DNA of 64,000 nt from a virus (lineage: Duplodnaviria; Caudoviricetes). The notes under the pieces are model-generated. The model was not told the DNA's origin and made no database searches. It was given only the letters and a program-made list of their open reading frames with translations. A program made the translations under genes and the position numbers. The DNA is taken from IMG/VR virus record IMGVR_UViG_3300034062_005626. One strand, 5' to 3'. Below are positions 715 through 61,270 of this stretch, one piece after another; position 1 is the first letter of the stretch, and each line of letters begins with the position of its first letter.

Positions 715-737
715 CTTTAAACAAAATCAAAAAATGC

Positions 738-764
738 AATCCACCTATTTTAGGTGGATTTTTT
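738..764 (+). terminator. intrinsic terminator
   Basis: AATCCACCTA-TTT-TAGGTGGATT followed by a T run. Confidence 0.85.
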
Positions 765-792
765 ATTTTATTACCTTTTGATAGGTCGGGAC

Positions 793-799
793 TATTTAT
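793..799 (+). promoter_or_regulatory. putative phage late promoter TATTTAT (homing endonuclease)
   Basis: recurrent motif, 6 nt before ATG 806 and downstream of a terminator. Confidence 0.6.
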
Positions 800-805
800 C
801 ATATT

Positions 806-7470: not shown

Positions 7471-7473
7471 CAT

Positions 7474-8235: not shown

Positions 8236-8244
8236 GTTTATAAC

Positions 8245-9324: not shown

Positions 9325-9325
9325 T

Positions 9326-9988: not shown

Positions 9989-9989
9989 T

Positions 9990-11800: not shown

Positions 11801-12531
11801 AAAAAAAAATATCTTCTTGGATTACTAACTATTTAGACAACACAAACTTAAGTAGTTTAATTGTTGGTGTTAGTGGCGGTATAGATTCGGCTTTGACCTC
11901 TACGTTATGTGCTATGTCAAATAAAAAAACAATTGTGGTTAGTATACCAATATTTCAAAATGAATCTCAACTAAATTTAGCAAAAAAACATATTGAATGG
12001 TTGAAAAGTAATTTTAATAATGTAATTTCAATAGAAATTGATATGTCTGATGTTTTTAGTATGTTTGAGAAAAAATTTGACTCTTATCACAATCTTTCTT
12101 CAGCTAATTCAAAATCAAGATTACGTATGGTTACATTATATCACATATCATCATTAAATAATGGAATAGTTGTGGGTACAGGAAACAAAGTTGAGGATTT
12201 TGGTATTGGTTTTTTTACTAAATATGGGGACGGAGGAGTTGATATATCACCAATAGCAGATTTAACAAAAACTGAAGTAAGGGAATTAGCATCAAATTTA
12301 GGAATTATAGAAGAAATAATTCAAGCGGAGCCCACCGATGGTCTTTGGGACGACGATAGAACCGATGAACAACAAATTGGGGCAACTTATTCAGAGTTGG
12401 AATGGGCAATGTCTTTTGATGGAAATTTGAGCGACCTCACCGAAAAAGAAATTGATGTACTTCAAATATATAAAAAATTCAATAAAATGAACGCCCATAA
12501 AATGACTACTATACCAATTTTTAAAAAATGA
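11791..12531 (+). CDS. nadE: NH3-dependent NAD+ synthetase
   Basis: GVSGGIDSA, NSKSRLRMVTLY, GTGNKVE..GFFTKYGDGG, PTDGLW..RTDEQQIGATY. Confidence 0.92.
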   Translation: MELEKKISSWITNYLDNTNLSSLIVGVSGGIDSALTSTLCAMSNKKTIVVSIPIFQNESQLNLAKKHIEWLKSNFNNVISIEIDMSDVFSMFEKKFDSYHNLSSANSKSRLRMVTLYHISSLNNGIVVGTGNKVEDFGIGFFTKYGDGGVDISPIADLTKTEVRELASNLGIIEEIIQAEPTDGLWDDDRTDEQQIGATYSELEWAMSFDGNLSDLTEKEIDVLQIYKKFNKMNAHKMTTIPIFKK

Positions 12532-13244
12532 ATACATCACAAAAAGAATTGATAAGAGGTAAAGAAGTCCTTTTAGATAATAGAAGTTTTGAATATGGGG
12601 GTTCTTGGGGTAAAGATGGTACTAACGACCCTCTTTTTCTTGAAGAGTGTATGAAAATTATTGAAGAAAAAAATCATAAAGTAATTTTTGATATTGGTTC
12701 TAATACTGGCCAATTTATTTTTTTTTACCTTTTTAAATCCGATATTGAAACGTATTGTTTTGAACCATTAAAACCTGTATACGACACACTAAATAGTAAT
12801 ATTTTGTTAAATGATATAAAAAATGCCAACACATATAACTTCGCTTTGTGTAATGAGGATGGTGAAAGTTATATTTACAGGCCAGAAAATATGATTGCTT
12901 GTGGTATGTCTACCATGGGAGAAAAAGCATTAAGATTTAAAAACGAATTTGGGGTTGTAAAAGAAAAAATACAATGTAAAAAATTAGATACTTTTGTATT
13001 GGAAAAAAAATTAAAAAAAATTGACTTTATAAAAATAGATACAGAAGGATTTGAATATTTTGTTTTACTTGGTGGTTTTAATACTTTACAAAAACACAAA
13101 CCAGACTTAGTAATTGAGTATCAAAAACTTAACATGTCTCAGTGTGGTGTTGAAGAAGATAAACTTAAAACCCTATTAGAAAGTATTGGGTATAATTATT
13201 TTAAATTTTTAAGCGGAGAAGATTTATATTGTAGTTATGTATAA
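12528..13244 (+). CDS. FkbM family methyltransferase
   Basis: FDIGSNTG, CFEP, IDFIKIDTEGFE. Confidence 0.88.
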   Translation: MNTSQKELIRGKEVLLDNRSFEYGGSWGKDGTNDPLFLEECMKIIEEKNHKVIFDIGSNTGQFIFFYLFKSDIETYCFEPLKPVYDTLNSNILLNDIKNANTYNFALCNEDGESYIYRPENMIACGMSTMGEKALRFKNEFGVVKEKIQCKKLDTFVLEKKLKKIDFIKIDTEGFEYFVLLGGFNTLQKHKPDLVIEYQKLNMSQCGVEEDKLKTLLESIGYNYFKFLSGEDLYCSYV

Positions 13245-14142
13245 TTTAATTATTTCAAATGCGGCGGGAACTTTCAGTACAATATTGAAGTACATTTCTT
13301 GGATGTGCGTACAAGAAAAAAATAGAGATACAATAAACTTATTTTTTGATTTTAGAAATAAAACAAAGGTTTCAGGTAACACTTTATTAAATTATGGTAC
13401 TTCAGATTTAAATTTAATTAATTTTTCACAAACAAGTGAAAACATTTTTGATATGTTTTTTAATATTAAAAATGTTGGTTTATACCCATATAACTCTAAA
13501 TATGTTGAGCAATACCCTTATGAAATTAAAAACATTATAAAAAATTATCCAGAACATTTAATTAAATATGAGGGTAGGGGTTGTGATGTAAAACAATATT
13601 TTGACGATTCAGAAATTAAAAAAATTAGGTCTGAATTTAATAAACAGTGGGAAAGGTTAGATTTATCACCAAACTTAAAAAAAAGAATCAATGTAGAAGT
13701 CGACCCATTTTTTAGAAATAATCATAGAATTTTATGTGCTATGATTAGGTATTCAGACCATTATGTTGGTGATTTTTCGTATGAAAAAATTTTTGAAGAG
13801 ATTGATGATAAAATGAAAAATTTTGATAAATTATTGTTAATAACACAATTATTACCTGTTGTGGAAATTCTTAAAGAAAAATATGGAAATAATTTAATTT
13901 ATTTTGAGAATAGACATAGAGTTAATGATTATAAAACTGATTGGGATGGGGGTAGGAATATAAGTATGAGTGATGAATCATTTATACGTGAAACCGAAGA
14001 TTGTATAATAGATGTCATAGCGGCTAGTAAAAGCCATTTTGTTTTAGGAGGTGCTAGTAATATGTTTTTAGGAGCACTTTCTATTAATAAAGATTTAAAT
14101 TATAAAATTTTCGACGTATTAATAAACAATATAGGTAGATAA
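13237..14142 (+). CDS. putative O-fucosyltransferase/NodZ-like glycosyltransferase
   Basis: G.FS near the N-terminus, AMIRYSD, IIDVIAASKSHFVLGGASN. Confidence 0.55.
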   Translation: MYNLIISNAAGTFSTILKYISWMCVQEKNRDTINLFFDFRNKTKVSGNTLLNYGTSDLNLINFSQTSENIFDMFFNIKNVGLYPYNSKYVEQYPYEIKNIIKNYPEHLIKYEGRGCDVKQYFDDSEIKKIRSEFNKQWERLDLSPNLKKRINVEVDPFFRNNHRILCAMIRYSDHYVGDFSYEKIFEEIDDKMKNFDKLLLITQLLPVVEILKEKYGNNLIYFENRHRVNDYKTDWDGGRNISMSDESFIRETEDCIIDVIAASKSHFVLGGASNMFLGALSINKDLNYKIFDVLINNIGR

Positions 14143-14146
14143 AAAA

Positions 14147-15154
14147 ATGAAAAAAATTGTAGTTTTAGGTGGCGGTGGATTCATAGGTGGACATTTAGCC
14201 AAAAGTTTAAAAGAAAAAGGTAATCATGTTAGAATATGTGATATAAAAAAACACGAATATTTCAAACACGAAGAAATATGTAATGAATTTGTTTTAGGTG
14301 ACTTAAGAGACCCTAACGTTGTCCAATTAGTTATTGAAGAAGGAGTTGATGAAGTTTATCAATTGGCTGCAGATATGGGTGGTGCGGGATATATTTTTAC
14401 AGGAGAAAATGATGCGAATGTTATGCATAATTCGGCATTAATTAATTTAAATGTAGTTCATGAGTGTGTTAAAAAACAAGTTAAAAAAGTTTTTTATTCT
14501 TCTTCAGCTTGTATGTACCCCGAACACAACCAATTAGACCCATTAAACCCAAATTGCGAAGAATCTTCAGCGTATCCCGCAAATCCAGATTCCGAATATG
14601 GGTGGGAAAAATTATTTAGTGAGAGGTTATATTTAGCATTCAATAGAAACTATGGGTTAGATGTTAGAATCGCCAGATTTCACAATATTTTCGGTCCTTT
14701 TGGTACGTGGGTTGGGGGTAAAGAAAAGGCTCCCGCGGCTATGTGTAGAAAGGCCTGTGAATCAAAAAATGGTGACCAAATTGAGGTATGGGGTGACGGT
14801 CAACAAACACGTTCATTTCTTTACATTGATGAGTGTTTAGAGGCGGTTTTTAAACTTATGGAAAGTAATTTTACAAACCCGGTTAATATTGGTTCTGAAG
14901 AAAAAGTTACAATAAATGAATTAGCACAAATGGCAATTAACATCTCAGGTAAGGATATAAAAATTAAAAATATTTTTGGTGATGAATTTATTAAAAAATA
15001 TGGATTCAAATGTCCTATAGGTGTTAGAGGTAGGACATCCGACAACAGTCTTTATGAAAAAACCGTTGGGTGGAAGGTTTCTAAACCACTTAAAGATGGT
15101 TTAGAAAAAACCTTACACTGGATTGATAATCAAATCAAAATTAAAAATGTATAA
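14147..15154 (+). CDS. GDP-mannose 3,5-epimerase-like SDR
   Basis: GGGGFIGGHL, QLAADMGGAGYI, SSACMYP, PDSEYGWEKL, KEKAPAAMCRK. Confidence 0.85.
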   Translation: MKKIVVLGGGGFIGGHLAKSLKEKGNHVRICDIKKHEYFKHEEICNEFVLGDLRDPNVVQLVIEEGVDEVYQLAADMGGAGYIFTGENDANVMHNSALINLNVVHECVKKQVKKVFYSSSACMYPEHNQLDPLNPNCEESSAYPANPDSEYGWEKLFSERLYLAFNRNYGLDVRIARFHNIFGPFGTWVGGKEKAPAAMCRKACESKNGDQIEVWGDGQQTRSFLYIDECLEAVFKLMESNFTNPVNIGSEEKVTINELAQMAINISGKDIKIKNIFGDEFIKKYGFKCPIGVRGRTSDNSLYEKTVGWKVSKPLKDGLEKTLHWIDNQIKIKNV

Positions 15155-16130
15155 AAAAAAAGTTTTAATAACAGGTATAAATGGTCAAGATGGTTCATAT
15201 TTGACTGAATTTTTATTAGATAAAAGTTATGAAGTGTGGGGGATGGTAAAAAGAAATTCAGTACCAGAAACACAATCATCAAGAATTGAACACTTGAGGG
15301 AAAATAAAATTATAAATTTGGAGTACGGTGATTTAACAGATATGGCTTCTTTGGTAAATATTATTCAAAAAGTCCAACCTGACGAAATTTATAACTTAGC
15401 CGCTCAATCACATGTTCGAGTTAGTTTTGACCAACCAATATACACAACAAACACAACTGGTTTAGGGACTTTAAATTTATTAGAAGCGGTCAGAATGGTG
15501 TCACCACATTCAAAAATTTATCAAGCATCATCTTCTGAAATGTTTGGTAATATGGTAGACGAAGACGGGTTCCAAAGAGAAACGACCCCTATGAACCCCG
15601 TTTCACCTTATGGTTGTGCAAAAGTATTTTCTTATAATATATGTAGAAATTATAGAAATTCATATAACATGAAAATATGGAACGGCATACTTTTTAATCA
15701 CGAATCACCAAGACGAGGAACTAATTTTGTAACTAATAAAGTGGTAAAGGGTGCCGTAAGAATTAAACTTGGTTTACAAAATAAATTAAGTTTAGGTAAT
15801 TTACAAGCCAGTAGAGATTGGGGGCATGCTAAAGATTATGTAAGGGCTATGTGGTTAATGCTACAAACAGAAACACCAGACGATTATGTATGCGCCACAG
15901 GAGTATCACATTCTGTAAAAGACTTGTGCGAATACACTTTTTCAAAACTTAATTTAAATTACAAAGATTATGTTGTGGTAGATGAGAAAAATTTTAGACC
16001 GGAAGAATTACATAATTTAAAAGGAGATTCATCCAAAATGAAGTCAAAAATAAATTGGGAACCTGAATACACATTCGAGTCAATGTTAGATGAAATGATT
16101 CAATACTGGTTAAATTATTATGATAAGTAA
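15147..16130 (+). CDS. gmd: GDP-mannose 4,6-dehydratase
   Basis: TGINGQDGSYL, NLAAQSHV, QASSSEMFG, SPYGCAK, NHESPRRG, RDWGHAKDYV. Confidence 0.95.
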   Translation: MYKKKVLITGINGQDGSYLTEFLLDKSYEVWGMVKRNSVPETQSSRIEHLRENKIINLEYGDLTDMASLVNIIQKVQPDEIYNLAAQSHVRVSFDQPIYTTNTTGLGTLNLLEAVRMVSPHSKIYQASSSEMFGNMVDEDGFQRETTPMNPVSPYGCAKVFSYNICRNYRNSYNMKIWNGILFNHESPRRGTNFVTNKVVKGAVRIKLGLQNKLSLGNLQASRDWGHAKDYVRAMWLMLQTETPDDYVCATGVSHSVKDLCEYTFSKLNLNYKDYVVVDEKNFRPEELHNLKGDSSKMKSKINWEPEYTFESMLDEMIQYWLNYYDK

Positions 16131-17031
16131 GATATTAGTTACAGGTGGTAATGGTTTAGTGGGTTCTGAGTTTGTTGGTGAAAAATATTATAAGCCAACG
16201 TCCAAAGAATATAATCTCAAAAATACGGATGACGCGAATCGTTTAATGTTGAAAAGGTTTGAAAGTGTAATTCACACCGCAGGTAGAGTGGGAGGATTGG
16301 GTAGTAATATAAATCACAAGGGAGAATTTTTTTATGAAAATATTATGATAAATACAAATGTGATTGAATCGGCAAGAATTAGTGGTGTTAAAAATTTAGT
16401 ATCTTTTTTGTCAACATGTATTTTTCCTGATAGTACGGAATACCCATTAACTGAAAAAAAAATACACATGGGTCCACCTCATTTTTCAAATGACGCTTAC
16501 GCTTACGCAAAACGTATGGTTGATGTCCAAATACGTGCATATAAAGAACAATACGGTTTAAATTATAAATCAGTTATACCTACTAATATTTATGGCCCAA
16601 ACGATAATTATGACATCAAAAATGGTCACGTAATTCCTTCACTAATTCATAAATGTTATTTAGCAAGAGAACATAAAACACCACTAACTATTTGGGGTAG
16701 TGGGAATCCACTAAGAGAGTTTATTTTTAGTAGAGATGTTGCTAAATTAACCGAGTGGGTTCTTTTTAACTATGACGAAAACGAACCAATAATACTTTCT
16801 ACCTCGGACGAGATTTCAATAAAAGAAGTTGTGGGTATAATAGTTGAAATTATGAATTTTAAAGGTGAAGTTAAGTTTGATACAACAAAACCTGACGGAC
16901 AATATAGAAAACCTTCAGACAACTCCAAAATTAAAAGTTATTTACCTGACTTTAATTTTACAAACCTTTTTGATGGATTAAAAGAAACTATTGAATATTT
17001 TGAAAAATACTATAATGTTGTAAGAAAATAA
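16120..17031 (+). CDS. fcl: GDP-L-fucose synthase
   Basis: VGGLGSN, FLSTCIFP, YAYAKR, PTNIYGPNDNY, HVIPSLI, WGSGNPLREF, KPDG. Confidence 0.92.
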   Translation: MISKILVTGGNGLVGSEFVGEKYYKPTSKEYNLKNTDDANRLMLKRFESVIHTAGRVGGLGSNINHKGEFFYENIMINTNVIESARISGVKNLVSFLSTCIFPDSTEYPLTEKKIHMGPPHFSNDAYAYAKRMVDVQIRAYKEQYGLNYKSVIPTNIYGPNDNYDIKNGHVIPSLIHKCYLAREHKTPLTIWGSGNPLREFIFSRDVAKLTEWVLFNYDENEPIILSTSDEISIKEVVGIIVEIMNFKGEVKFDTTKPDGQYRKPSDNSKIKSYLPDFNFTNLFDGLKETIEYFEKYYNVVRK

Positions 17032-51759: not shown

Positions 51760-52701
51760 CTATATAAGTTCCATAATTTTTCTATATACCTGTAATACGT
51801 TTGGATGACATTCAAAAGTTTTTTTATTTTCTAAACAATTCACTAAAGATGGTATACCTTGTATTGAACCCCACTCTTTTACCCCATGTTTCATGTCTGA
51901 TGCGCACATCAAATCACAGCCCCCACTAATGTAATTATATTTGTAATTTTGACTACCATTTCTATATGGGGCTCTAAATTCAGGATTAATTGAACTACCT
52001 AATTGAATAATTTCACAATCTGTGGTTCCTGCTAAGTGTAATAAACCTGAATCCATTGTAACAAAACATGAACTATAATTTATTAAATGCCATGTTTCGT
52101 CAATTGAAGTTTTATTCATTAAATTAATTCCTTTTTCTATTTCAAAGTCAAACACAGGTTTATCAACATTTGAACCTCCAATTTCTGACGAGTTTTTTCC
52201 TATTGATACAACAAAAATTCCTTGTTCATTTAAAAGTTTTGTCAAGATTTTCCAATTATCAATCGACCAAGTTCTTGAGTTCCAATTTTGAACAGGGTGA
52301 ATTAAAACATATTTTCTTGGAAAATTTTTCATTATTGAAACTTTGTTTGGAATAAAATCCAACTTCATTTCTTCTTTTGTCAACATAAACCCCAAAGAAA
52401 TTGCATGAATTTGTCTAATGTCCATTACATTATGTTTATTACAAACCCCATTTGGTTTGTAAAAAACATCAAAAGAATTAAAAATTTCATATTCATTTTT
52501 TTCTTCATCAGTTATTGGGTTAAATAATTCACTATAAACTTTATCCACATATGGATTATTTAAAAACAAATATGGGTGATGTGTAATCACCGAAATTTTT
52601 TGACCATAAGAATTATATAATTTTCTAATTGTAGGTGTTGAACATAATGTATCGCCTAAAGCTCTACTTTCAGTTAAATCTAAACAAATTTTTTTCATCA
52701 A
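51760..52701 (-). CDS. GT9 (heptosyltransferase-fold) glycosyltransferase
   Basis: ALGDTLCSTPTIRKL, RTWSIDNW, FVTMDSGLLHLAG; C-terminal four-Cys cluster. Confidence 0.8.
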   Translation of the reverse strand: MMKKICLDLTESRALGDTLCSTPTIRKLYNSYGQKISVITHHPYLFLNNPYVDKVYSELFNPITDEEKNEYEIFNSFDVFYKPNGVCNKHNVMDIRQIHAISLGFMLTKEEMKLDFIPNKVSIMKNFPRKYVLIHPVQNWNSRTWSIDNWKILTKLLNEQGIFVVSIGKNSSEIGGSNVDKPVFDFEIEKGINLMNKTSIDETWHLINYSSCFVTMDSGLLHLAGTTDCEIIQLGSSINPEFRAPYRNGSQNYKYNYISGGCDLMCASDMKHGVKEWGSIQGIPSLVNCLENKKTFECHPNVLQVYRKIMELI

Positions 52702-52752
52702 TTAAAATATAGGATACTTCACAAATAATATGAATAAATTATTTTTTTAATT

Positions 52753-55662
52753 ATGAAATTAAAATTAATGTATGTGGTTCCTCATTTATCAACAGGAGGA
52801 ATGCCACAATTCGTATTAAAAAGAATTGAATCTTTATTGGAATATAAAAATGAAATTGAAGTTTTTCTTGTAGAATACTCACAATTTAGCGACACATATA
52901 TTGTTCAAAGAAATAAGATAATAGAATTACTGGATGTTGGTCATTTTTTTTCATTAGGTTGGTTTACAGAGCCTGAAAAAAAATATCAACTAATTGATAT
53001 TATAAAAGAAAACAAGATTGATATTGTCCATATTGAAGAAATACCTGAAGGGTTTGAAAGTTTCAATAAAATTCCTTTGGATATACTTAATCAACTTTAT
53101 GATAATAATAGAACGTGGAAAATTGTTGAAAGTTGTCACAATATTTGGTTTGATGGTAATTCAAATAAAAAGTTACATCCTGACTATTACTCTTTTGTTA
53201 CTCCATACCATTTAAGCTCACAGTTTAATAAACTTAATACTCCAAAAAAAGTTTGGGAATACCCCATAGAAAATAAAGTAAGTGATATATTAAAAGAGTA
53301 TTCAATTTATGACAAATCACATAGAGTTCCAACATTAAAAAAAATAATTGAGAGGGAAAACTTACAAATTTCTATGACAAAAACACACATTTTAAATGTG
53401 GGTCTTTGGACTGAAGGTAAAAATCAAAAAGAAGGTATTGAAGTCGCAAGATTACTTGAAAATACACACCCTGATTTACATTTTCATTTTATTGGAAATC
53501 AAGCATCAAATTTTGAAAACTATTGGGGTCCAATTATGAATAACTTACCAAAAAATGTTACAGTATGGGGGGAAAGAGAAGATGTTGATACATTTATGAA
53601 AGCCTGTGATGTTTTGATGTTTAATTCAACTTGGGAATGTAACCCTTTGGTGGTTAGAGAGGCTATTAACTATGGAATGAAGATAATGACAAGAAATCTT
53701 CCTCAATATATGGGAATGTTTGATGAATATATAACACCAATTAAATCAAACAACTACGAAGACATCAAAAATACCTTACTTGAATTATTAAATTCAAATA
53801 AGACTTATGAAATAAATACAAAAAGAGATTTCAAAAAAGAATTATTAGATTTTTATAAAGAAGTTAATAACGTTTCAAAAACTTTAAACAATCCAATAAC
53901 AAAAACATATAAGGTAAATAATCATTTTGTTGTTAATCCATTTATTGAAATATCGGGCGAAGAAGAAACGAACTTTGAAATAACTTTTATTGATGAAGGT
54001 GGAAATGTAATTTATCAAAATAATATACCCATAAATTCTTGGGTAAAATTGAATAGGGAATATTACACAAAATGGACAATTAGAGTTAAAGAAGATAATA
54101 GTGTAATTTTTTCTAACATTTTAAATTTAGAAAATAGAAGAGTTTACATTTCTTTTGGTTCAAAATCCCTTGGAGATTCTTTGGCTTGGATTCCGTACTG
54201 CGAAGAATTTAGAAAAAAACATAATTGCGAATTAATTGTGTCAACATTTTTAAATGATTTATTCAAAGACCAATACCCAAATATTGAATTTGTTGAGCCA
54301 GGTGAAACTGTATATGATATATATGCTCAATACCAACTTGGTTGGTTTTATAATGAAAATGGTGAATTTGATTCAAATAAACATCCCTTTGATTTTAAAA
54401 AACAACCACTACAAAAAACGGCAACAGATATTTTAGGTTTAGATTATGTTGAAATTAGACCTGAATTAAAATTGCCAAACATTACAAAAAAGAAAAAAGT
54501 GGGCATTGGGTTTCATTCAACAGCACAAGCAAAATATTGGAATAACCCTGATGGTTGGCAGGTGGTTATAGATTATTTAGATTCATTAGGTTATGAATGT
54601 ATGATATACTCAAAAGAGGGTAATGGTTATATGAATAATTTTTATCCAAAAGGGGTTACGATTTATAAAGGTGGAAACCTTCAAGAAGTAATTGATGATT
54701 TATCCGCCTGTGAGTTTTTTGTAGGTTTAGGTTCAGGATTATCTTGGTTGGCGTGGGCATGTAAAATACCCGTAGTTTTGGTTTCAGGATTTAGTGAAAA
54801 ATGGGCTGAGACAACCTTAGACACATATAGAGTTATAAATGAAAATGTATGTCATGGATGTTTTAATAATGATAGATTAAATGCTGGAGATTGGAATTGG
54901 TGTCCGTTACATAAAGGAACTAACAGACAATTTGAATGTACAAAAGAAATAAGTTCTGATATGGTCATAAAAGAAATAAATAAAATAATTAACAAAGAAA
55001 TGATAGAAGATAAACAATTTGATTGGGGTAAAAAAAGTGAATGGTATGTAAGTCAAGCAACAAAAGAAATTTTTGAAGATGATGCTTATGAAAGATTTTT
55101 TGAAGTTGAAGAGGGGGATATAGTTGTCGATTTGGGGGCATCGATTGGTCCTTTTACCTATAAAATTTTACCTAAAAACCCAAAACAATGTTATGTTGTT
55201 GAACCTTTATCTTATCATATAAATGTTTTACATAAAAACGTAGGAGAAGATAATGTTAAAATTATTCAAGGAGCAATTACGGATAAAAAGAATATAGAAA
55301 TAACATGGGACGGTATAACAGAAAGTGTTCCTACATTTTCATTCAGAGAATTTTTAAATGAAAATAAAATAAATAAAATAGATTTTTTAAAGTGTGATTG
55401 TGAAGGTGGTGAGTATGATGTATTTCAACCGTCCAATATAGATTTTTTAAAAACAATACCAAAAATTGTAACAGAATTTCATTTAGTAAATGATGAAAAC
55501 TTCCACGAATGTAAGTTTAGATGGTTCAGAGATAATATACTACCAAAATTTGAAAATTATAAAGTGTATTCTTACGATGGTGTTGATATAAAATGGGATT
55601 TATGGAATGACCATTTTATTGAATATTATAATGAAGTTATTATCTATATAGATAATAGATAA
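52753..55662 (+). CDS. fusion: GT4-like + TibC/AAH-type autotransporter O-heptosyltransferase + FkbM methyltransferase
   Basis: PHLSTGGMPQF..ECNPLVVREA (GT4); SWVKLNREYYTKWTIRV, SKSLGDSLAW, FVGLGSGLSWLAWA, CHGC..WCPLHKGTNRQFEC (TibC/AAH); VDLGASIG, KCDCEGGEY (FkbM). Confidence 0.8.
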   Translation: MKLKLMYVVPHLSTGGMPQFVLKRIESLLEYKNEIEVFLVEYSQFSDTYIVQRNKIIELLDVGHFFSLGWFTEPEKKYQLIDIIKENKIDIVHIEEIPEGFESFNKIPLDILNQLYDNNRTWKIVESCHNIWFDGNSNKKLHPDYYSFVTPYHLSSQFNKLNTPKKVWEYPIENKVSDILKEYSIYDKSHRVPTLKKIIERENLQISMTKTHILNVGLWTEGKNQKEGIEVARLLENTHPDLHFHFIGNQASNFENYWGPIMNNLPKNVTVWGEREDVDTFMKACDVLMFNSTWECNPLVVREAINYGMKIMTRNLPQYMGMFDEYITPIKSNNYEDIKNTLLELLNSNKTYEINTKRDFKKELLDFYKEVNNVSKTLNNPITKTYKVNNHFVVNPFIEISGEEETNFEITFIDEGGNVIYQNNIPINSWVKLNREYYTKWTIRVKEDNSVIFSNILNLENRRVYISFGSKSLGDSLAWIPYCEEFRKKHNCELIVSTFLNDLFKDQYPNIEFVEPGETVYDIYAQYQLGWFYNENGEFDSNKHPFDFKKQPLQKTATDILGLDYVEIRPELKLPNITKKKKVGIGFHSTAQAKYWNNPDGWQVVIDYLDSLGYECMIYSKEGNGYMNNFYPKGVTIYKGGNLQEVIDDLSACEFFVGLGSGLSWLAWACKIPVVLVSGFSEKWAETTLDTYRVINENVCHGCFNNDRLNAGDWNWCPLHKGTNRQFECTKEISSDMVIKEINKIINKEMIEDKQFDWGKKSEWYVSQATKEIFEDDAYERFFEVEEGDIVVDLGASIGPFTYKILPKNPKQCYVVEPLSYHINVLHKNVGEDNVKIIQGAITDKKNIEITWDGITESVPTFSFREFLNENKINKIDFLKCDCEGGEYDVFQPSNIDFLKTIPKIVTEFHLVNDENFHECKFRWFRDNILPKFENYKVYSYDGVDIKWDLWNDHFIEYYNEVIIYIDNR

Positions 55663-56256
55663 TTAACCACAAGGACCGATGGGTTCCCATGACCAAACTC
55701 TTCCATCCATATACCACCTATATATCATTGTCCCATCAACATAAAATCCTTCAGGGGCATAATTACCACCACATCCACCATAAGGGTATAGTAAATTATT
55801 TGTAGAATCGAAACTATAAAACGATGCACTTCCATTACATGCAACGTCAAGGAACTTCCCATAGGAAAGGGACTTGTCATCACAAGTAGGGGTCGGTGTA
55901 CAACTACCAAAAAATGACCAAGTCCATCCCATAGTAGTCTCTTGCCAATTATATATATTACCAAAAGTATCAACATAAAATCCCTCTGGCGCATAATTTA
56001 ATACGTCGTCACAATAACCAAACTGAAACAATTGTTGAGTTGTCATATTAAAACTATAAAGACCTGACGATTCAGAACAAGCAATTCCGGGTATTGGCCC
56101 AAACTGATAACTTAAATCAACACACGATGTTGGGTCACTTCCAGGCCATCCGGGTATTTCTCTTGTATCTATTCCTCCTATATATTTTATACTTGAGGAT
56201 GTAATTCCACCTATTTTAGTAATTAATTCAACATTTACGCCTGATACTGTTCCCAT
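55663..56256 (-). CDS. small fibre-associated protein with duplicated Cys-containing module
   Basis: two copies of C..YSF...C..NYAPEGFYVD...IY.W. Confidence 0.7.
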   Translation of the reverse strand: MGTVSGVNVELITKIGGITSSSIKYIGGIDTREIPGWPGSDPTSCVDLSYQFGPIPGIACSESSGLYSFNMTTQQLFQFGYCDDVLNYAPEGFYVDTFGNIYNWQETTMGWTWSFFGSCTPTPTCDDKSLSYGKFLDVACNGSASFYSFDSTNNLLYPYGGCGGNYAPEGFYVDGTMIYRWYMDGRVWSWEPIGPCG

Positions 56257-56260
56257 GTTA

Positions 56261-59200
56261 TTATATTTCTACCCAAGTATTATCAGGATTGAAATAAATT
56301 GTTTCAGTAGTCCCATCTAAACTATACCCTATGATTCTTATTATATCACCAGTTCCTGAAGGTGCTGTTGTTGTTATACCACCCGTGCTTGTTGAAACGT
56401 ATAAAATATCTCCCGTGGTTGTAGAAAATCCTGCATCTCCTGAATTTCTAATATACCCTCTTATTAACATACCTTTTGACGGTTGCGTATCCAGTGCGAA
56501 GGCTAATAATCCTGTTGCTCCTGATGCTGCGTTCGCGTCAGTTGCAACCCAAGCTCCTGAACTATTATAATAGTATAAATTACCTGCGGTTGTTGAACCC
56601 GTTCCAAAGGTTACTATGTCACCATATCCACTTACGGAAGTTGTTAATTCTGTTGTTGGGTCATGATAAAATGAATAATCGCCATTAACATGTAATCTTC
56701 TTACGGGTACAATTGTACCGATTCCAACATTGTCAGTTGATGCATCAGCATAAAATAATCCATCTGTACCTCCTCCTTTAATTTGAAAATGAGATACGGC
56801 ATTTTGAGTATTATTAAATATTGAAGTTCCCTCGTCTGTAAAAATTGCGTAATTAGTAGTTGCTCCCGCCGAACTAACTCTAACACCATAATTTTCTAAA
56901 GCATCATTTGATACAGAAACATTTAAACCGTATTTAACACTTGTGCTTGGTGATGCAGTACCATTAACAATAAAACTACCACCCGTTTGAGTATCAGAAC
57001 CTAATGAATTTGTATTACTATTTGAAACTTTTATACCATTACTGTCACCGGTAGTACCATTAATTCTTGCTGAAAACGCATCGTTTGATATTGTTCCACC
57101 AAATACAGTGACATCATGACCTACAGTAGTATAACAATTACCAAAAACATTAAAAATAGTTCCAGTTTTACCCCCCACCCCATTTCCGTGGTCCCCAAAT
57201 ACGCTCCCCTCAATACCTAGTTGGTATGACGAATCTTTTAATGAATGATTTGTAATTCTAATACCTACATTTTCTCCATATATAGTACCATTACCTACTG
57301 TGACAACGGACCCGACATTTTCAACCGTTGCATCATATACTAAAATATCATGACCTGTTAAACCAGAAACAATAGCTTGCCCTTGACCTGTAACTTTTGA
57401 AACAGAATATCCAAAACTTTGACTGGTTTGTGTCGATGTAACATGTAATCCAAAAGTGTCGTTTCCTATTGAATCTAAAATAAATTGATGTCCCTGAACC
57501 GCCAATCTTTGAGTTCCTCCGTTGAATATTAAATTATTATCTGAAACTATACCTCCCGCACCATCTGAGCGTAAAACTTGGTATGTTGACCCACTAACAC
57601 TTGGCGATGTTCCACTACTTCCTGACGTTCCATTTGTACCACTGGTGCCGTTAGTTCCTGAAGTTCCATTTGCCCCTGAACTACCTGATGTACCATTTGT
57701 TCCTGATGAGCCCGAAGTACCGTTAGTACCTGATGTTCCATTCGTTCCACTTGTTCCATTTGTTCCCGAACTACCTGATGTTCCGTTAGTTCCGTCTGTA
57801 CCTGATGTTCCATTAGTACCACTTGAACCCGAGGTTCCATTAGTACCTGATGTACCGTTTGTACCGCTACTACCGCTTGTTCCGTTGGTTCCACTTGTAC
57901 CATTAGTTCCACTCGTGCCGTTTGTGCCTGATGTTCCGTTTGTGCCGCTCGAACCTGAAGTGCCGTTAGTACCTGAGCTTCCACTAGTACCGTTAGTGCC
58001 AGATGTTCCGTTAGTACCACTACTTCCTGAAGTTCCATTTGTTCCTGACGTTCCATTTGTTCCCGATGTTCCGGCAGCCGTTAATAAATTTGTCCCAACA
58101 CCCGCAGCACAGGCTGTTATGTCTATAAAGGCACCTCTTGCAGAGCCCCCTTGTTCAAAAAATCTAACTCTATTTTGCCACACGTCAAAAGTAACTCCAG
58201 TACCTGATATTGACGTGTTTGTTGCAGGTTTGTTTAATAATATTTCTCCACCTTCATCACCAGCTTGATACAATACACTTAATTTTGTACCGTCAAAAGT
58301 TAAAAGAGATTCCGCAACTATTGCTCCCGAACCGTTTGAAGTTAATATTTGGTCATTTGACCCTGGTACTGTTGGTGATGTCCCGCTACTTCCTGATGTA
58401 CCGTTTGTTCCTGAACTTCCACTCGTTCCGTTTGTCCCGCTCGTTCCATTTGTACCTGAGCTTCCACTAGTGCCGTTAGTTCCTGACGAACCACTAGTTC
58501 CACTACTACCTGATGTTCCATTTGTACCCGAACTTCCACTAGTACCATTCGTCCCGCTAGTTCCATTTGTACCTGAAGTTCCGTTAGTTCCTGATGTGCC
58601 ATTCGTACCAGATGAACCACTAGTTCCGTTTGTACCACTACTACCGCTAGTTCCGTTAGTACCACTAGTTCCGTTAGTACCACTCGAACCTGAAGTCCCA
58701 TCTGTACCTGAACTACCGCTGGTACCGTTTGTTCCGTTAGTTCCCGATGTCCCATTTGTACCTGAGGTTCCGTTTGTGCCATTCGTTCCCGATGTACCAT
58801 TTGTTCCTGACGTTCCATTCGTTCCCGATGTACCATTTGTTCCTGACGTTCCATTTGTTCCCGATGTTCCATTTGTTCCGTTTGTACCTGATGTTCCATT
58901 CGTTCCTGAGGTTCCATTTGTTCCACTAGTACCGTTTGTTCCATTCGTTCCTGAGGTTCCATTCGTTCCGCTAGTACCGTTTGTTCCATTCGTTCCGCTA
59001 GTACCATTAGTTCCTGAAGTTCCATTGGTTCCGTTAGTGCCTGATGTACCATTCGTACCAGATGAACCACTAGTTCCGTTTGTACCACTACTACCACTAC
59101 TACCACTTGTGCCATTTGTACCGCTAGTTCCGTTTGTCCCTGATGTTCCATCCGTACCTGAACTACCTGAAGTTCCGTTTGTCCCTGAAGACCCCGATGT

Positions 59201-61270
59201 GCCATTAGTACCATTTGTACCGCTAGTCCCATTTGTTCCTGAAGTTCCGTTGGTCCCACTACTTCCACTCGTACCATTTGTACCACTTGAACCCGAAGTT
59301 CCATTCGTACCGCTAGTACCATTAGTTCCACTCGAACCTGATGTCCCTGAAGAACCACTACTTCCATTTGTTCCGTTTGTTCCTGAAGAGCCGCTAGTCC
59401 CATTTGTACCACTACTACCACTTGTACCATTTGTACCTGAAGAGCCGTTGGTTCCGTTAGTGCCGCTACTACCACTGGTCCCATTTGTACCCGATGTACC
59501 ATTTGTTCCACTACTTCCTGACGTACCATTCGTACCACTAGTTCCATTTGTTCCCGAACTACCTGAAGTTCCGTTAGTGCCACTTGTTCCAGAAGACCCT
59601 GCAGGTCCTGGAGCACCCGCTAAATTAATGTCCCAAGTGGCATACGTACCCGTTCCTGTATTATTGGTACTTGAGATTACAAATGCCCCCGTAGATGAAT
59701 TATAGGATGATATTGTACCTTCAAATCTATTGGATAAATTGTGAGCAACAATTACTGTTTGACCCACAGTATATGAAAGTCCAGTACCTCCCGTTAAATT
59801 AACTGTCGTTGGGTGTACAGTTGGAATAGCTATTGATGTAGTGGATGTTGTTGAATAAATATCCCCGTCTTGACCGCTAGTGCCGTCAGTTCCTGAAGTA
59901 CCACTACTTCCTGAAGTCCCGTTTGTTCCTGAACTACCTGAAGTTCCATTTGTCCCGTTTGTTCCCGAAGTACCATTCGTTCCGGATGAACCCGAAGTGC
60001 CGTTAGTACCACTTGTACCATTAGTTCCACTTGTTCCGTTAGTTCCTGATGTTCCATTAGTTCCACTTGTACCATTAGTTCCACTTGTACCATTAGTACC
60101 GTTGGTTCCACTAGTCCCATTCGTTCCTGAAGTTCCGTTTGTGCCTGAGGAACCACTAGTACCATTTGTTCCATTTGTCCCTGAAGACCCTGATGTTCCG
60201 TTAGTACCACTTGAACCGTTTGTCCCTGAAGAACCACTAGTTCCATTTGTACCACTAGAACCTGAAGAGCCGTCCGTTCCACTTGAACCCGAGGTTCCAT
60301 TAGTGCCTGAAGACCCACTTGTTCCACTTGAACCTGAAGAACCGTTTGTTCCATTAGTACCGCTTGAACCCGATGTTCCATTTGTGCCCGATGTTCCATT
60401 TGTTCCCGATGTTCCATTTGTGCCCGATGTTCCATTAGTACCCGATGTTCCGTTAGTTCCGCTTGAACCCGATGTTCCGTTAGTACCCGATGTTCCGTTA
60501 GTTCCGCTTGAACCAGATGTCCCATTAGTACCTGAAGAACCACTAGTTCCATTAGTACCTGACGTTCCATTAGTTCCGCTACTACCACTTGAACCATCCG
60601 TACCATCGACTCCCGATATTCCACTTGTACCGTTTGTTCCTGATGTCCCACTACTACCTGAAGTGCCAGAACCTCCACCCGTAGTAAACCCTGTCACACT
60701 CACAGTTTGACCATCAGTTCTTGTTAGTTGTAAAGTTGTTGTTCCTGAATTATAGGTTCCACCTGTAACATATATGTCGGTAAATCCTGTTAAAAATCCA
60801 TTAACATTAAAAGTCCCTCCTGTATTGTTTGTAAATGTTGCAACACCATTATTTGGATTATATGTTCCTCCTGTTACAAATATTTCTGGAGGTAATCCTA
60901 AATATGTTGACGCAGATATTGTAAATGCACTTAAAGATTGTGTGAATAATGTATTTCCACTCACAGTTCCACCACTTAATGGTAGATATTCACCTGTGGC
61001 TGAACCACTATTAAAAATACTCCAATCAGTTATAGTATTTGACCATGGAGCGACATTTAACTTATAATAAGTTGTACCACCACTCACACCAACTACCATC
61101 CCCGCTCTTCTTCTTAAAGTTGGTATAGCGTTTAAATCACTTATAGTATTGACGTTTCTTAAACCATCAATACCATAAATTGGGTCAATTACCGGATATA
61201 CATCACTAGTGTCGCTTGGGGATATAAACCCAAAAACTTCAACACCACCTGATAGACTAAATGAACTCAT
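56261..61270 (-). CDS. long tail/head fibre-like protein with three Gly-(T/S)-(S/N) triplet blocks
   Basis: 1669 aa; strict Gly every third residue in three blocks separated by globular domains; beta-rich C-terminus. Confidence 0.8.
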   Translation of the reverse strand: MSSFSLSGGVEVFGFISPSDTSDVYPVIDPIYGIDGLRNVNTISDLNAIPTLRRRAGMVVGVSGGTTYYKLNVAPWSNTITDWSIFNSGSATGEYLPLSGGTVSGNTLFTQSLSAFTISASTYLGLPPEIFVTGGTYNPNNGVATFTNNTGGTFNVNGFLTGFTDIYVTGGTYNSGTTTLQLTRTDGQTVSVTGFTTGGGSGTSGSSGTSGTNGTSGISGVDGTDGSSGSSGTNGTSGTNGTSGSSGTNGTSGSSGTNGTSGTNGTSGSSGTNGTSGTNGTSGTNGTSGTNGTSGTNGTSGSSGTNGTNGSSGSSGTSGSSGTNGTSGSSGTDGSSGSSGTNGTSGSSGTNGSSGTNGTSGSSGTNGTNGTSGSSGTNGTSGTNGTSGTNGTNGTSGTNGTSGTNGTSGTNGTSGTNGTSGTNGTSGSSGTNGTSGTNGTNGTSGSSGTNGTSGSSGTSGTDGTSGQDGDIYSTTSTTSIAIPTVHPTTVNLTGGTGLSYTVGQTVIVAHNLSNRFEGTISSYNSSTGAFVISSTNNTGTGTYATWDINLAGAPGPAGSSGTSGTNGTSGSSGTNGTSGTNGTSGSSGTNGTSGTNGTSGSSGTNGTNGSSGTNGTSGSSGTNGTSGSSGTNGTNGSSGSSGTSGSSGTNGTSGTNGTSGSSGTNGTSGSSGTNGTSGTNGTSGTNGTNGTSGSSGTNGTSGSSGTDGTSGTNGTSGTNGTSGSSGSSGTNGTSGSSGTNGTSGTNGTNGTSGTNGTSGTNGTNGTSGTNGTSGTNGTNGTSGTNGTSGTNGTSGTNGTNGTSGTNGTSGTNGTSGTNGTSGTNGTSGTNGTNGTSGTNGTSGTNGTNGTSGSSGTDGTSGSSGTNGTSGTNGTSGSSGTNGTSGSSGTNGTSGTNGTSGTNGTSGTNGTSGSSGTNGTSGSSGTSGSSGTNGTSGSSGTNGTSGTNGTSGSSGTNGTSGSSGTSPTVPGSNDQILTSNGSGAIVAESLLTFDGTKLSVLYQAGDEGGEILLNKPATNTSISGTGVTFDVWQNRVRFFEQGGSARGAFIDITACAAGVGTNLLTAAGTSGTNGTSGTNGTSGSSGTNGTSGTNGTSGSSGTNGTSGSSGTNGTSGTNGTSGTNGTSGTNGTSGSSGTNGTSGTNGTSGSSGTNGTSGTDGTNGTSGSSGTNGTSGTNGTSGTNGTSGSSGTNGTSGSSGANGTSGTNGTSGTNGTSGSSGTSPSVSGSTYQVLRSDGAGGIVSDNNLIFNGGTQRLAVQGHQFILDSIGNDTFGLHVTSTQTSQSFGYSVSKVTGQGQAIVSGLTGHDILVYDATVENVGSVVTVGNGTIYGENVGIRITNHSLKDSSYQLGIEGSVFGDHGNGVGGKTGTIFNVFGNCYTTVGHDVTVFGGTISNDAFSARINGTTGDSNGIKVSNSNTNSLGSDTQTGGSFIVNGTASPSTSVKYGLNVSVSNDALENYGVRVSSAGATTNYAIFTDEGTSIFNNTQNAVSHFQIKGGGTDGLFYADASTDNVGIGTIVPVRRLHVNGDYSFYHDPTTELTTSVSGYGDIVTFGTGSTTAGNLYYYNSSGAWVATDANAASGATGLLAFALDTQPSKGMLIRGYIRNSGDAGFSTTTGDILYVSTSTGGITTTAPSGTGDIIRIIGYSLDGTTETIYFNPDNTWVEI
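57605..58075 (-). repeat. 9-bp-period Gly-X-Y repeat block 3 (GTN/GTS/GSS)
   Basis: read from sequence; synonymous codons vary between units. Confidence 0.9.
58375..59600 (-). repeat. 9-bp-period Gly-X-Y repeat block 2
   Basis: read from sequence; longest block. Confidence 0.9.
59865..60680 (-). repeat. 9-bp-period Gly-X-Y repeat block 1
   Basis: read from sequence. Confidence 0.9.

What the first reader, a model, noticed from the sequence alone, without database searches (positions are those of the whole stretch)
51760..61270. Phage TibC/AAH-type protein O-glycosyltransferase next to a Ser/Thr-repeat fibre: candidate virion glycosylation system
Seen: the middle of ORF 52753 has both the N-terminal beta module and the catalytic domain of the autotransporter heptosyltransferase family, including the four iron-binding-type Cys (CHGC..WCP..FEC, 54850-54939). 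It is fused to a GT4-like domain and an FkbM methylase, sits back to back with a second GT9-fold gene that also has four C-terminal Cys, and converges on a fibre with hundreds of regularly spaced Ser/Thr. Established: TibC/AAH hyper-glycosylate Ser in repeats of adjacently encoded adhesins. Inference: a one-polypeptide initiate-extend-methylate glycosylation line for the fibre. No ADP-heptose genes are in the window, so the donor may differ.
Basis: partly seen in the sequence, partly recalled or inferred. Interest (0 to 1): 0.82.

Follow-up and report, generated by a model that had tools for sequence, protein, structure and literature searches.

The report
Phage enzyme likely sugar-coating collagen-like fibre
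A lake jumbo phage has a three-part enzyme (two sugar transferases, one a true relative of the bacterial adhesin-glycosylating TibC/AAH enzymes, plus a methylase) next to a proline-free collagen-like fibre made of Gly-Thr-Ser/Asn triplets; the same pairing recurs in many uncultured phages, so the phage probably sugar-coats its own fibre, but no experiment has tested this.

Summary
ORF 52753-55662 is a GT4 + TibC/AAH-family + FkbM fusion. It scores 295 bits on TIGR04414 (cut-off 200), and its model matches TibC 4RAP at TM 0.87. The catalytic Asp, the phosphate- and sugar-binding residues and all four finger Cys are present. It sits back to back with a GT9 gene that has four conserved C-terminal Cys. 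It converges, across a small Cys-rich ORF, on a 1669-aa fibre.

The fibre is collagen-like: 280 Gly-X-Y triplets, with X = Thr/Ser, Y = Ser/Asn and no Pro.

- 14 of 18 TibC-domain clusters in IMG/VR have a Ser/Thr collagen-like ORF within 10 kb.
- In five near-complete jumbo genomes, 9 of 12 collagen ORFs lie within about 22 kb of the enzyme.
- Of 19 related contigs without the enzyme, only one has such an ORF.

The adenine-contacting Arg286 of TibC is Val/Leu/Ile in 55 of 59 phage copies, and no gmhA was found, so the donor may not be ADP-heptose.

A cultured phage, Microcystis phage Mel-JY01, has the same pairing; its collagen ORF is unannotated.

This scan has already noted the theme in at least 15 other genomes. 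I found no paper describing it, and nothing has been tested biochemically.

The parts
52753..55662 (+). 969-aa three-domain enzyme. GT4-like domain: residues 1-385, nt 52753-53907. TibC/AAH (BAHT) domain: residues about 400-750, nt 53950-55002. FkbM methyltransferase: residues about 760-969, nt 55030-55659.
   Evidence: Pfam and NCBIfam matches. PDB TibC match at E 8e-67. AF2 model with Foldseek TM 0.87 to 4RAP. dN/dS 0.06-0.17 in each domain against the four homologues with the closest FkbM domain; the fifth (L005) gives 0.13-0.39.
54175..54177 (+). Asp475, the equivalent of the TibC catalytic base Asp110.
   Evidence: Alignment with TibC-numbered bacterial enzymes. Invariant in the 58 phage copies that cover the position. 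Its role is taken from PMC4358343.
54688..54690 (+). Val646, at the position of TibC Arg286, which contacts adenine N1 of ADP-heptose.
   Evidence: Val, Leu or Ile in 55 of 59 phage copies; Arg in 4 of 4 bacterial enzymes. Role of Arg286.
54850..54939 (+). Four-Cys finger (Cys700, 703, 717, 729), corresponding to the TibC iron-finger residues Cys339/342/358/370.
   Evidence: Iron binding was not tested.
51760..52701 (-). 313-aa GT9-fold glycosyltransferase, divergently transcribed from the fusion gene (51-bp gap, 52702-52752). It has no N-terminal beta-barrel and carries four conserved C-terminal Cys. The true start is probably the ATG one codon inside the listed TTG.
   Evidence: Pfam GT9 E 2e-15. 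The catalytic Asp motif aligns with the TibC domain. Cys conserved in 11 of 11 homologues. Model best matches are TibC (TM 0.62-0.65) and WaaF (0.60).
55663..56256 (-). 197-aa Cys-rich protein with an internal duplication, downstream of the fibre gene on the same strand. No family match.
   Evidence: Homologues occupy the same position in L002, L009 and L016.
56261..61270 (-). 1669-aa collagen-like fibre, the proposed acceptor. N-terminal domain: residues 1-201. Three Gly-X-Y blocks: residues 202-471 (nt 59858-60667), 552-965 (nt 58376-59617) and 1067-1222 (nt 57605-58072). C-terminal domain: about 450 residues.
   Evidence: Pfam Collagen E 9e-115. 280 triplets with X = T217/S56 and Y = S161/N108, and one Pro at X and one at Y among the 560 positions.
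4291..17031 (+). Possible accessory glycan-building cluster, 35 kb from the enzyme; its link to the fibre system is not shown. Contents: a GT2+GT4 fusion, a GT2, a GT11 (fucosyltransferase family), an NDP-sugar dehydrogenase, two FkbM-like genes, GDP-mannose 4,6-dehydratase and two epimerase/reductases.
   Evidence: Pfam matches.

Best explanation
This is a phage-encoded protein O-glycosylation module whose acceptor is the phage's own collagen-like fibre.

Shown:
- The middle domain of ORF 52753-55662 belongs to the TibC/AAH (BAHT) family, all of whose characterised members O-glycosylate Ser in repetitive proteins encoded next to them.
- It keeps the catalytic base, the beta-phosphate and sugar-O4 contacts and the four-Cys finger.
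- It is fused to a GT4 domain and an FkbM methyltransferase, and a second GT9 gene lies beside it.
- The enzyme is genomically coupled, across deep divergence and gene rearrangement, to Ser/Thr-rich, Pro-free Gly-X-Y genes.

Inferred:
- In the infected cell's cytoplasm, the TibC-like domain puts the first sugar on Ser/Thr of the G-T-S, G-T-N and G-S-S triplets, before or during trimerisation.
- The GT4 domain, and perhaps the GT9 protein, extend the glycan, and FkbM O-methylates a sugar.
- The product is a densely glycosylated fibre on the virion. The glycan may stabilise or hydrate a triple helix that lacks Pro/Hyp, and may shield the fibre or tune its adhesion.
- The donor is probably not recognised as ADP-heptose in the TibC manner, because the adenine-N1 contact Arg286 is Val here.
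For: Family membership:
- TIGR04414 295 bits against a cut-off of 200; TibC 4RAP match at E 8e-67; model TM 0.87.
- Asp110, Lys230, Trp305 and three of the four Cys are invariant in the phage copies that cover them; Thr226 is Ser in one copy and Cys358 is Gly in one.

Functional coupling of the domains:
- GT4 is fused to TibC or lies directly upstream in most of the 80 loci; FkbM is fused or nearby in many.
- All three domains are under purifying selection, dN/dS 0.06-0.17 against four of the five homologues compared.

Coupling to the fibre:
- 51 of 80 TibC loci, and 14 of 18 clusters at 65% identity, have a collagen-like ORF within 10 kb, upstream or downstream and on either strand.
- In five 249-436 kb genomes, 9 of 12 collagen ORFs lie within about 22 kb of the TibC gene. 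In three of these genomes they occur nowhere else.
- In 19 related contigs without TibC (1.3 Mb in all), only one has a collagen ORF, and that one sits at the contig end.
- Ser/Thr fill 63-98% of X/Y positions and Pro 0-5% in every neighbouring collagen ORF, whereas Asn varies from 0 to 32%. Ser/Thr is therefore the constant feature.
- The main cluster without collagen sits beside a roughly 2000-aa fibre-like ORF, and one locus in it also has a poly-Thr protein.
- The cultured phage Mel-JY01 has the same order: collagen ORF, Ser-rich structural protein, GT4+TibC fusion.

Precedents: BAHTs act on adjacently encoded repeat proteins; the collagen-like protein BclA is glycosylated.
Against: - No glycan, mass shift or virion proteome exists for any of these phages.
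- The fibre's place in the virion is inferred only from its architecture. PHROGs, PDB and the Atlas gave no named match for its end domains.
- Collagen ORFs far from the enzyme in two genomes have the same composition, so composition does not mark the neighbours as special.
- Four of 18 TibC clusters have no collagen ORF within 10 kb.
- Known BAHT substrates are folded beta-helices, not collagen.
- Enzyme and fibre genes converge, so they are not one operon.
- Glycosyltransferases commonly sit in variable fibre regions of aquatic myophages, where they have been read as host-surface modifiers (PMC7029224).
Confidence: 0.6

Rival explanations
1. The module is a protein O-glycosyltransferase, but its acceptor is another protein. 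Candidates are the small Cys-rich neighbour, a capsid or tail protein, or a host surface protein. On this reading the link to collagen genes only reflects a shared location in the variable fibre region.
For: - The enzyme and fibre genes converge and are separated by another ORF.
- Four of 18 TibC clusters lack a nearby collagen ORF.
- In Mel-JY01 a Ser-rich non-collagen structural protein is the immediate neighbour.
- One locus has a poly-Thr protein nearby.
Against: - The Ser/Thr Gly-X-Y gene is the neighbour that recurs across TibC lineages only 41-96% identical to this domain, and in different gene orders.
- Collagen ORFs are nearly absent from related contigs without the enzyme.
- Homologues of the Cys-rich ORF appear in only three loci.
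Confidence: 0.15
2. The enzymes remodel host envelope glycans (LPS, capsule or S-layer) during infection, for example to block superinfection. This has been proposed for glycosyltransferases in the fibre regions of pelagimyophages.
For: - PMC7029224 offers this reading for glycosyltransferases in host-recognition clusters.
- The GT9 family is best known for LPS heptosyltransferases.
- The window also carries a large glycan cluster with GDP-fucose genes and a GT11.
Against: - The middle domain is specifically TibC-type, with the beta-barrel, thumb and finger that adapt BAHTs to protein substrates. Its TM to TibC is 0.87, against about 0.5 to WaaC.
- No characterised BAHT acts on LPS.
- This reading does not explain the tight coupling to collagen-like genes.
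Confidence: 0.12
3. The glycosyltransferases modify phage DNA (glycosylated bases) to evade restriction.
For: Phage GT-B enzymes, including ones that use large sugars such as heptose or Kdo, hypermodify DNA (bioRxiv 10.1101/2023.12.21.572611).
Against: - Those enzymes resemble T4 beta-glucosyltransferase, not TibC.
- No hydroxymethylase or TET-type gene was seen near the locus.
- The fold match is to a protein-modifying enzyme.
Confidence: 0.03

Closest known systems
TibC and AAH, the bacterial autotransporter heptosyltransferases (BAHT family; TIGR04414; PDB 4RAP/4RB4; PMC4358343)
   Same: - Same family by the curated HMM cut-off, with 36% identity and TM 0.87.
- Shares the N-terminal beta-barrel, the GT-B core, the catalytic Asp110, Thr226/Lys230/Trp305 and the four-Cys finger.
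- Encoded next to a long, repetitive Ser-rich protein.
   Different: - Encoded by a phage.
- Fused to GT4 and FkbM domains, whereas TibC and AAH are single-domain proteins that add single heptoses.
- The neighbour is a collagen-like Gly-X-Y fibre, not an autotransporter beta-helix.
- Arg286, the adenine contact needed for TibC activity, is Val.
- The phage has no heptose-pathway genes.
BclA-type glycosylated collagen-like exosporium proteins of Bacillus and C. difficile (reviewed in PMC8968730)
   Same: A prokaryote-world collagen-like fibre with hydroxy-amino-acid-rich triplets that is glycosylated; the glycan is thought to help hydrate the helix.
   Different: - BclA triplets are Pro- and Thr-rich (from my own knowledge, GPT), whereas this fibre is Pro-free with Thr/Ser at X and Ser/Asn at Y.
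- The BclA glycosyltransferases are not BAHT enzymes (my own knowledge, not tested here).
Chlorovirus PBCV-1 A064R, a GT-GT-methyltransferase protein that builds capsid-protein glycans (PNAS 2020, as described in PMC7826918)
   Same: A virus-encoded single polypeptide with two glycosyltransferase domains and a terminal sugar methyltransferase, acting on a virion protein glycan.
   Different: - A virus of eukaryotic algae.
- Its glycans are N-linked on the major capsid protein.
- Its domains are unrelated to GT9/BAHT.
- No homology was tested or claimed here.
Mycobacteriophage virion glycosylation (Freeman et al. 2023, cited in PMC12619734)
   Same: Phage-encoded glycosyltransferases decorate the phage's own structural proteins.
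   Different: - The acceptors there are the C-termini of the capsid and tail-tube subunits.
- The enzymes are not TibC-type.
- The hosts are Actinobacteria.
- No collagen-like acceptor is involved.
Mimivirus collagen modification (Luther et al. 2011, cited in PMC8968730)
   Same: A virus that encodes collagen-like proteins and also glycosylates them itself.
   Different: - A giant virus of amoebae.
- The glycosylation is on hydroxylysine, by a different enzyme type.
- Here the likely acceptors are Ser/Thr, and the enzyme is a BAHT.

Membership tests
BAHT (TibC/AAH autotransporter O-heptosyltransferases) | Scores above the curated cut-off of the family model TIGR04414 | tested here: met
   295.1 bits against a cut-off of 200, residues 406-745, model positions 27-374 of 374.
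BAHT (TibC/AAH autotransporter O-heptosyltransferases) | Protomer fold: N-terminal beta-barrel, GT-B catalytic domain, beta-hairpin thumb and finger insertion | tested here: met
   AF2 model with pLDDT 91.8. Foldseek to 4RAP: TM 0.87 over 376 columns, rmsd 2.7 A. The LPS heptosyltransferases reach TM about 0.5.
BAHT (TibC/AAH autotransporter O-heptosyltransferases) | Catalytic base Asp110 and the ligand contacts Thr226, Lys230 and Trp305 | tested here: met
   Asp475, Thr590, Lys594 and Trp665 in this protein. Asp, Lys and Trp are invariant in the phage copies that cover them; Thr is Ser in one of 59.
BAHT (TibC/AAH autotransporter O-heptosyltransferases) | Arg286, which contacts adenine N1 of ADP-heptose (described as conserved in the family; R286A abolishes or largely diminishes activity) | tested here: not met
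   Val646 here. Val, Leu or Ile in 55 of 59 phage copies; Arg in 4 of 4 bacterial enzymes. On the tree, Arg is confined to the bacterial clade, its nearest viral sister and one other viral copy.
BAHT (TibC/AAH autotransporter O-heptosyltransferases) | Four Cys that coordinate Fe(III) (iron finger) | tested here: inconclusive
   All four Cys are present and aligned. Metal binding cannot be tested with these tools.
BAHT (TibC/AAH autotransporter O-heptosyltransferases) | Dodecameric ring assembly | not testable with these tools
   A dodecamer exceeds the size limit of the complex predictor. The flanking fused domains may or may not be compatible with a ring.
BAHT (TibC/AAH autotransporter O-heptosyltransferases) | Adjacent acceptor is an autotransporter adhesin with a beta-helical repeat passenger | tested here: not met
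   There is no autotransporter in the window. The neighbour is a collagen-like fibre. Bacterial members do sit beside AIDA-type genes.
BAHT (TibC/AAH autotransporter O-heptosyltransferases) | Transfers heptose from ADP-heptose | not testable with these tools
   No heptose-pathway genes in the window, and no gmhA in four near-complete relatives. Candidate host lineages do carry GmhA-like genes, so a host-supplied donor is not excluded.
Collagen-like (Gly-X-Y) proteins | Long uninterrupted Gly-X-Y triplet runs | tested here: met
   Three blocks of 90, 138 and 52 triplets. Pfam Collagen 374.9 bits against 27.2. Triple-helix formation was not tested.
GT4 (Glycos_transf_1) glycosyltransferases | Pfam PF00534 above the gathering score | tested here: met
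   58.2 bits against 26.4, residues 199-353.
FkbM methyltransferases | TIGR01444 / PF05050 above their cut-offs | tested here: met
   55.5 bits against 37.7, and 46.1 against 22.7.
GT9 (ORF 51760-52701) | PF01075 above the gathering score, and a GT-B fold | tested here: met
   57.3 bits against 22. Model TM 0.60-0.65 to TibC and WaaF. It is not a BAHT member: TIGR04414 gives only 32.6 bits against 200.

The most novel reading that the evidence does not exclude
Dense O-glycosylation of Thr/Ser by a phage-borne branch of the BAHT family is what lets these phages build very long collagen triple helices with no proline or hydroxyproline. The result would be a sugar-coated fibre layer on the virion, made with a nucleotide-sugar donor other than ADP-heptose. 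A further possibility is that the well-known bacterial adhesin heptosyltransferases are a small Arg286-bearing offshoot of this mainly phage-borne family.
Probability: 0.25. Interest if true: 0.85.

Novelty: new variant of a known kind. Interest (0 to 1): 0.66.

Why it matters
Glycosylation of phage particles has so far been shown only for a few mycobacteriophages. If this reading is right, virion protein glycosylation is widespread in freshwater phages: at least 99 IMG/VR contigs carry the enzyme, about 5,500 related proteins exist in public data, and this phage's locus is held nearly intact (89-99% of sampled words) in 20 lake and freshwater metagenome runs.

It would also show three new things:
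- that the enzyme family known from pathogen adhesins is used by phages;
- that it has an acceptor type not previously linked to it (collagen-like triplets);
- that it may use a different sugar donor.

It gives a concrete explanation for how Pro-free Gly-Thr-Ser helices might be stabilised. That is relevant to phage adsorption, to particle stability and to recombinant collagen design. Microcystis phage Mel-JY01 is cultured and has the same gene pairing, so the idea can be tested directly.

Tried and rejected
- **Expression.** No RNA run was listed for the gene, so expression is untested.
- **Host without heptose.** I tested whether the likely host lineage lacks heptose, which would force a different donor. 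This is rejected: 4 of 5 Flavobacteriales genomes with the closest DnaK have a GmhA-like gene at 196-217 bits.
- **Composition of near versus distant collagen ORFs.** I tested whether collagen ORFs near the enzyme differ in composition from distant ones in the same genomes. They do not.
- **Fibre end domains, the Cys-rich ORF and neighbouring ORFs.** No family or solved relative was found.
- **GT4 region.** No relative by sequence in the PDB.
- **Cys-rich ORF versus the poly-Thr protein of L036.** The similarity is one short motif and is not significant (E 0.14).
- **Four-Cys region of the GT9 protein.** Modelled at pLDDT below 50, so a TibC-like finger there is unconfirmed.
- **Presence/absence test with capsid-related contigs.** This is limited because most are fragments, 8-76% complete.
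- **Tree root.** The outgroup branch is extremely long, so the nesting of bacterial enzymes among phage ones is only a hint.
- **Tool error.** The first genome-contig scan gave no answer and was repeated.

Full report
**What is in the sequence**

The region holds four ORFs:
- 51760-52701 (-), 313 aa
- 52753-55662 (+), 969 aa
- 55663-56256 (-), 197 aa
- 56261-61270 (-), 1669 aa

The 969-aa protein has three domains. Residues 199-353 match Pfam Glycos_transf_1 (GT4-type, E 1e-15). Residues 406-745 match NCBIfam TIGR04414, the TibC/AAH model, at 295 bits against a cut-off of 200 (E 7e-88). Residues about 790-917 are FkbM, above both curated cut-offs.

The middle domain matches TibC crystal structures 4RAP/4RB4 at E 8e-67. 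An AlphaFold2 model of residues 385-758, built on 57 sequences, has pLDDT 91.8. It superposes on TibC over 376 columns with TM 0.87, whereas LPS heptosyltransferases reach about 0.5. The N-terminal beta module and the insertions typical of TibC are therefore present.

The 313-aa ORF is a GT9 protein (Pfam 57 bits against 22). It lacks the beta-barrel, and its catalytic Asp motif aligns with that of the TibC domain. Four C-terminal Cys are conserved in all 11 homologues. The model is unreliable over that stretch, so a metal finger there is unproven.

**The fibre is collagen-like**

It has 280 Gly-X-Y triplets in three blocks (residues 202-471, 552-965, 1067-1222). X is Thr in 217 triplets and Ser in 56. 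Y is Ser in 161 and Asn in 108. Pro appears once at X and once at Y among the 560 positions, and the blocks hold 434 Ser/Thr. Pfam Collagen matches at E 9e-115.

Typical bacterial collagens have Pro at X in 19-31% of triplets (PMC8968730), so this composition is unusual.

The end domains have no named relatives. That the protein is a virion fibre is inferred from its architecture alone.

**Context**

The window is from a low-GC (about 29%) T4-like phage. It carries a gp23-type capsid protein, a gp20-type portal, a large terminase and a prohead protease, plus Hsp70, ClpB and PhoH.

The closest DnaK sequences (70-75% identity) are from Flavobacteriales and other Bacteroidota. This fits the aquatic jumbo 'moraphages' described in PMC12619734, although that paper mentions neither TibC nor collagen.

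Contigs carrying close relatives of the TibC domain reach 229-436 kb, which suggests a jumbo phage. The locus is held nearly intact (89-99% of sampled words) in 20 lake and freshwater metagenome runs from 20 studies, released 2016-2024.

At 4291-17031 the window also carries a glycan cluster: several glycosyltransferases including a GT11, an NDP-sugar dehydrogenase, two FkbM-like genes, GDP-mannose 4,6-dehydratase and two epimerase/reductases. None of the 52 window ORFs scanned with Pfam (all those of 150 aa or more, plus two shorter ones) has a heptose-pathway domain.

**Comparative test**

A scan of IMG/VR found at least 99 viral contigs encoding the TibC-like domain, at 41-96% identity. In these loci the GT4 domain is fused to TibC or lies directly upstream in most cases. 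FkbM is fused or nearby in many, and the GT9 gene is present in about 15. Domains that are fused in some genomes and separate neighbours in others usually act together.

All three domains are under purifying selection. dN/dS is 0.06-0.17 against four of the five homologues compared; the fifth, L005, gives 0.13-0.39.

The link to collagen-like genes is strong:
- A collagen-like ORF of at least 15 triplets lies within 10 kb in 51 of 80 loci.
- After clustering the enzyme at 65% identity, this holds for 14 of 18 clusters, with the fibre upstream or downstream and on either strand.
- In five near-complete genomes (249-436 kb), 9 of 12 collagen ORFs lie within about 22 kb of the TibC gene. In three of those genomes they occur nowhere else.
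- As a control, 19 capsid-related contigs without the enzyme (36-229 kb, 1.3 Mb in total) contain one collagen ORF, cut by a contig end (positive control).

Every neighbouring collagen ORF is Ser/Thr-rich (63-98% of X/Y positions) and has little or no Pro (0-5%). Asn varies from 0 to 32%, so Ser/Thr is the constant feature rather than the N-G-T sequons.

The largest cluster without collagen sits beside a roughly 2000-aa fibre-like ORF, and one locus in it also has a poly-Thr mucin-like protein.

**A cultured example**

Microcystis phage Mel-JY01 (PP395634) is the only isolate among the five records in the phage collection that matched the protein's TibC region; a sixth record matched only the FkbM part.

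Its + strand, bases 2-3049, is an open frame of at least 1016 aa of G-T-S/G-S-S triplets with non-repeat domains. The deposited annotation instead calls short minus-strand ORFs there. Next come a Ser-rich 'structural protein' (3065-4591) and a 1226-aa GT4+TibC fusion annotated as 'methyltransferase FkbM'.

**Donor**

According to PMC4358343, TibC has these functional residues:
- Asp110, the catalytic base
- Thr226 and Lys230, which hold the beta-phosphate
- Trp305, which binds heptose O4
- Arg286, which contacts adenine N1 and explains the ADP specificity; R286A abolishes or largely diminishes activity
- Cys339/342/358/370, which bind iron

I aligned 59 dereplicated phage domains with four bacterial enzymes that use TibC numbering. 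Asp110, Lys230, Trp305 and three of the four Cys are invariant; Thr226 is Ser in one copy and Cys358 is Gly in one. Position 286 is Val in 45, Leu in 8, Ile in 2 and Thr in 1, and Arg in only 3. All four bacterial enzymes have Arg. Here it is Val646.

On a maximum-likelihood tree, Arg286 is confined to the bacterial clade, its nearest viral sister group (which has no collagen neighbour) and one other viral sequence. The root rests on a very long outgroup branch, so the apparent nesting of bacterial enzymes among phage ones is only a hint.

No gmhA was found in four near-complete relatives, and only one of them has a weak rfaE-domain-II-like match. However, 4 of 5 candidate host genomes have a GmhA-like gene, so a host-supplied heptose donor cannot be excluded.

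My reading is that the chemistry at the phosphate and sugar is kept, while recognition of the nucleotide base has changed. The identity of the sugar remains open.

**Mechanism and rivals**

Best-supported model (confidence about 0.6):
- The TibC-like domain initiates O-glycosylation on Ser/Thr of the fibre's triplets in the cytoplasm.
- The GT4 domain, and possibly the GT9 protein, extend the glycan.
- FkbM methylates a sugar.
- The glycosylated fibre is assembled on the virion.

Family membership, the residues, the fusions and the genomic coupling are shown. The acceptor, the order of steps, the sugar and the virion location are inferred.

Rivals:
- Another protein is the acceptor (0.15).
- Host envelope glycans are the target, as proposed for pelagimyophage glycosyltransferases in PMC7029224 (0.12).
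- DNA glycosylation (0.03). Those enzymes resemble T4 beta-glucosyltransferase, not TibC.

**Comparison with what is known, and novelty**

The enzyme passes the sequence, fold and catalytic-residue tests for the BAHT family. It fails two family features: Arg286 and the autotransporter neighbour. It is best described as a phage-borne subfamily of BAHT.

The closest functional analogues are:
- the glycosylated collagen-like protein BclA and Mimivirus collagen glycosylation;
- the GT-GT-methyltransferase A064R of chlorovirus PBCV-1;
- mycobacteriophage virion glycosylation.

Full-text searches found no paper linking TibC-type enzymes to phages or to collagen-like fibres.

Earlier notes of this scan describe the same theme in at least 15 other genomes, so it is not new to the scan. 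This window adds:
- the Arg286 result;
- the negative-control contigs;
- the whole-genome clustering;
- the selection analysis;
- the host heptose check;
- the cultured Mel-JY01 case.

I classify it as a new variant of a known kind, with interest 0.66.

Noticed in passing
window 4291-17031 (+): A large sugar-metabolism cluster: a GT2+GT4 fusion, a GT2, a GT11 (fucosyltransferase family), a UDP-Glc/GDP-Man dehydrogenase, two FkbM-like genes, GDP-mannose 4,6-dehydratase and two epimerase/reductases (a GDP-fucose-type pathway). An NAD synthase gene (11791-12531) sits in the middle. It could supply or extend the fibre glycan, but no link was shown.
   Followed up: partly
L001 (Microcystis phage Mel-JY01, PP395634) 2-3049 (+): The deposited annotation calls minus-strand hypothetical proteins (1-651, 739-2298) over what is really a plus-strand collagen-like ORF of at least 1016 aa (G-T-S/G-S-S triplets plus non-repeat domains). 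The ORF runs off the start of the record. The GT4+TibC fusion downstream is annotated only as 'methyltransferase FkbM'.
   Followed up: yes
window 41824-43680 (-) and 43860-45902 (+): The phage encodes a full-length Hsp70/DnaK (Pfam E 2e-260) and a ClpB-type disaggregase side by side. The closest DnaK sequences (70-75% identity) are from Flavobacteriales and other Bacteroidota, which points to the host lineage.
   Followed up: partly
window 55663-56256 (-): A 197-aa Cys-rich protein with an internal duplication (45% identity over 53 aa, E 6e-13) and a repeated 'YAPEGFYVD' motif, lying just downstream of the fibre gene. It has no family match. Homologues occupy the same position in three related loci.
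   Followed up: partly
L036 4185-5549 (+): In a phage lineage whose TibC gene has no collagen neighbour, a 455-aa protein with long poly-Thr and (T6-EAP)n mucin-like linkers between Cys-containing domains lies a few kb upstream of the GT4 and TibC genes. It is another plausible O-glycosylation acceptor.
   Followed up: no
window 56261-61270 (-): The G-T-N-G-T-S pattern gives 108 Asn at the Y position, nearly all followed by Gly-Thr or Gly-Ser (N-G-T/S sequons). Asn content in related fibres ranges from 0 to 32%, so this is not a conserved feature, and no N-glycosyltransferase was seen.
   Followed up: partly
tree of TibC domains (loci L002-L085): The four bacterial autotransporter heptosyltransferases group with one Arg286-bearing viral cluster (L078-L081), and this group lies inside a wider set of phage sequences. 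This may mean the bacterial enzymes are an offshoot of a mainly phage-borne family. However, the root rests on a very long outgroup branch, and sampling is biased towards phage sequences.
   Followed up: partly
window 806-1753 (+): An ORF with a NUMOD3 motif and a weak match to a restriction-endonuclease-like domain, probably a homing endonuclease. It lies near a PolB-type exonuclease-like gene and a dUTPase gene.
   Followed up: no
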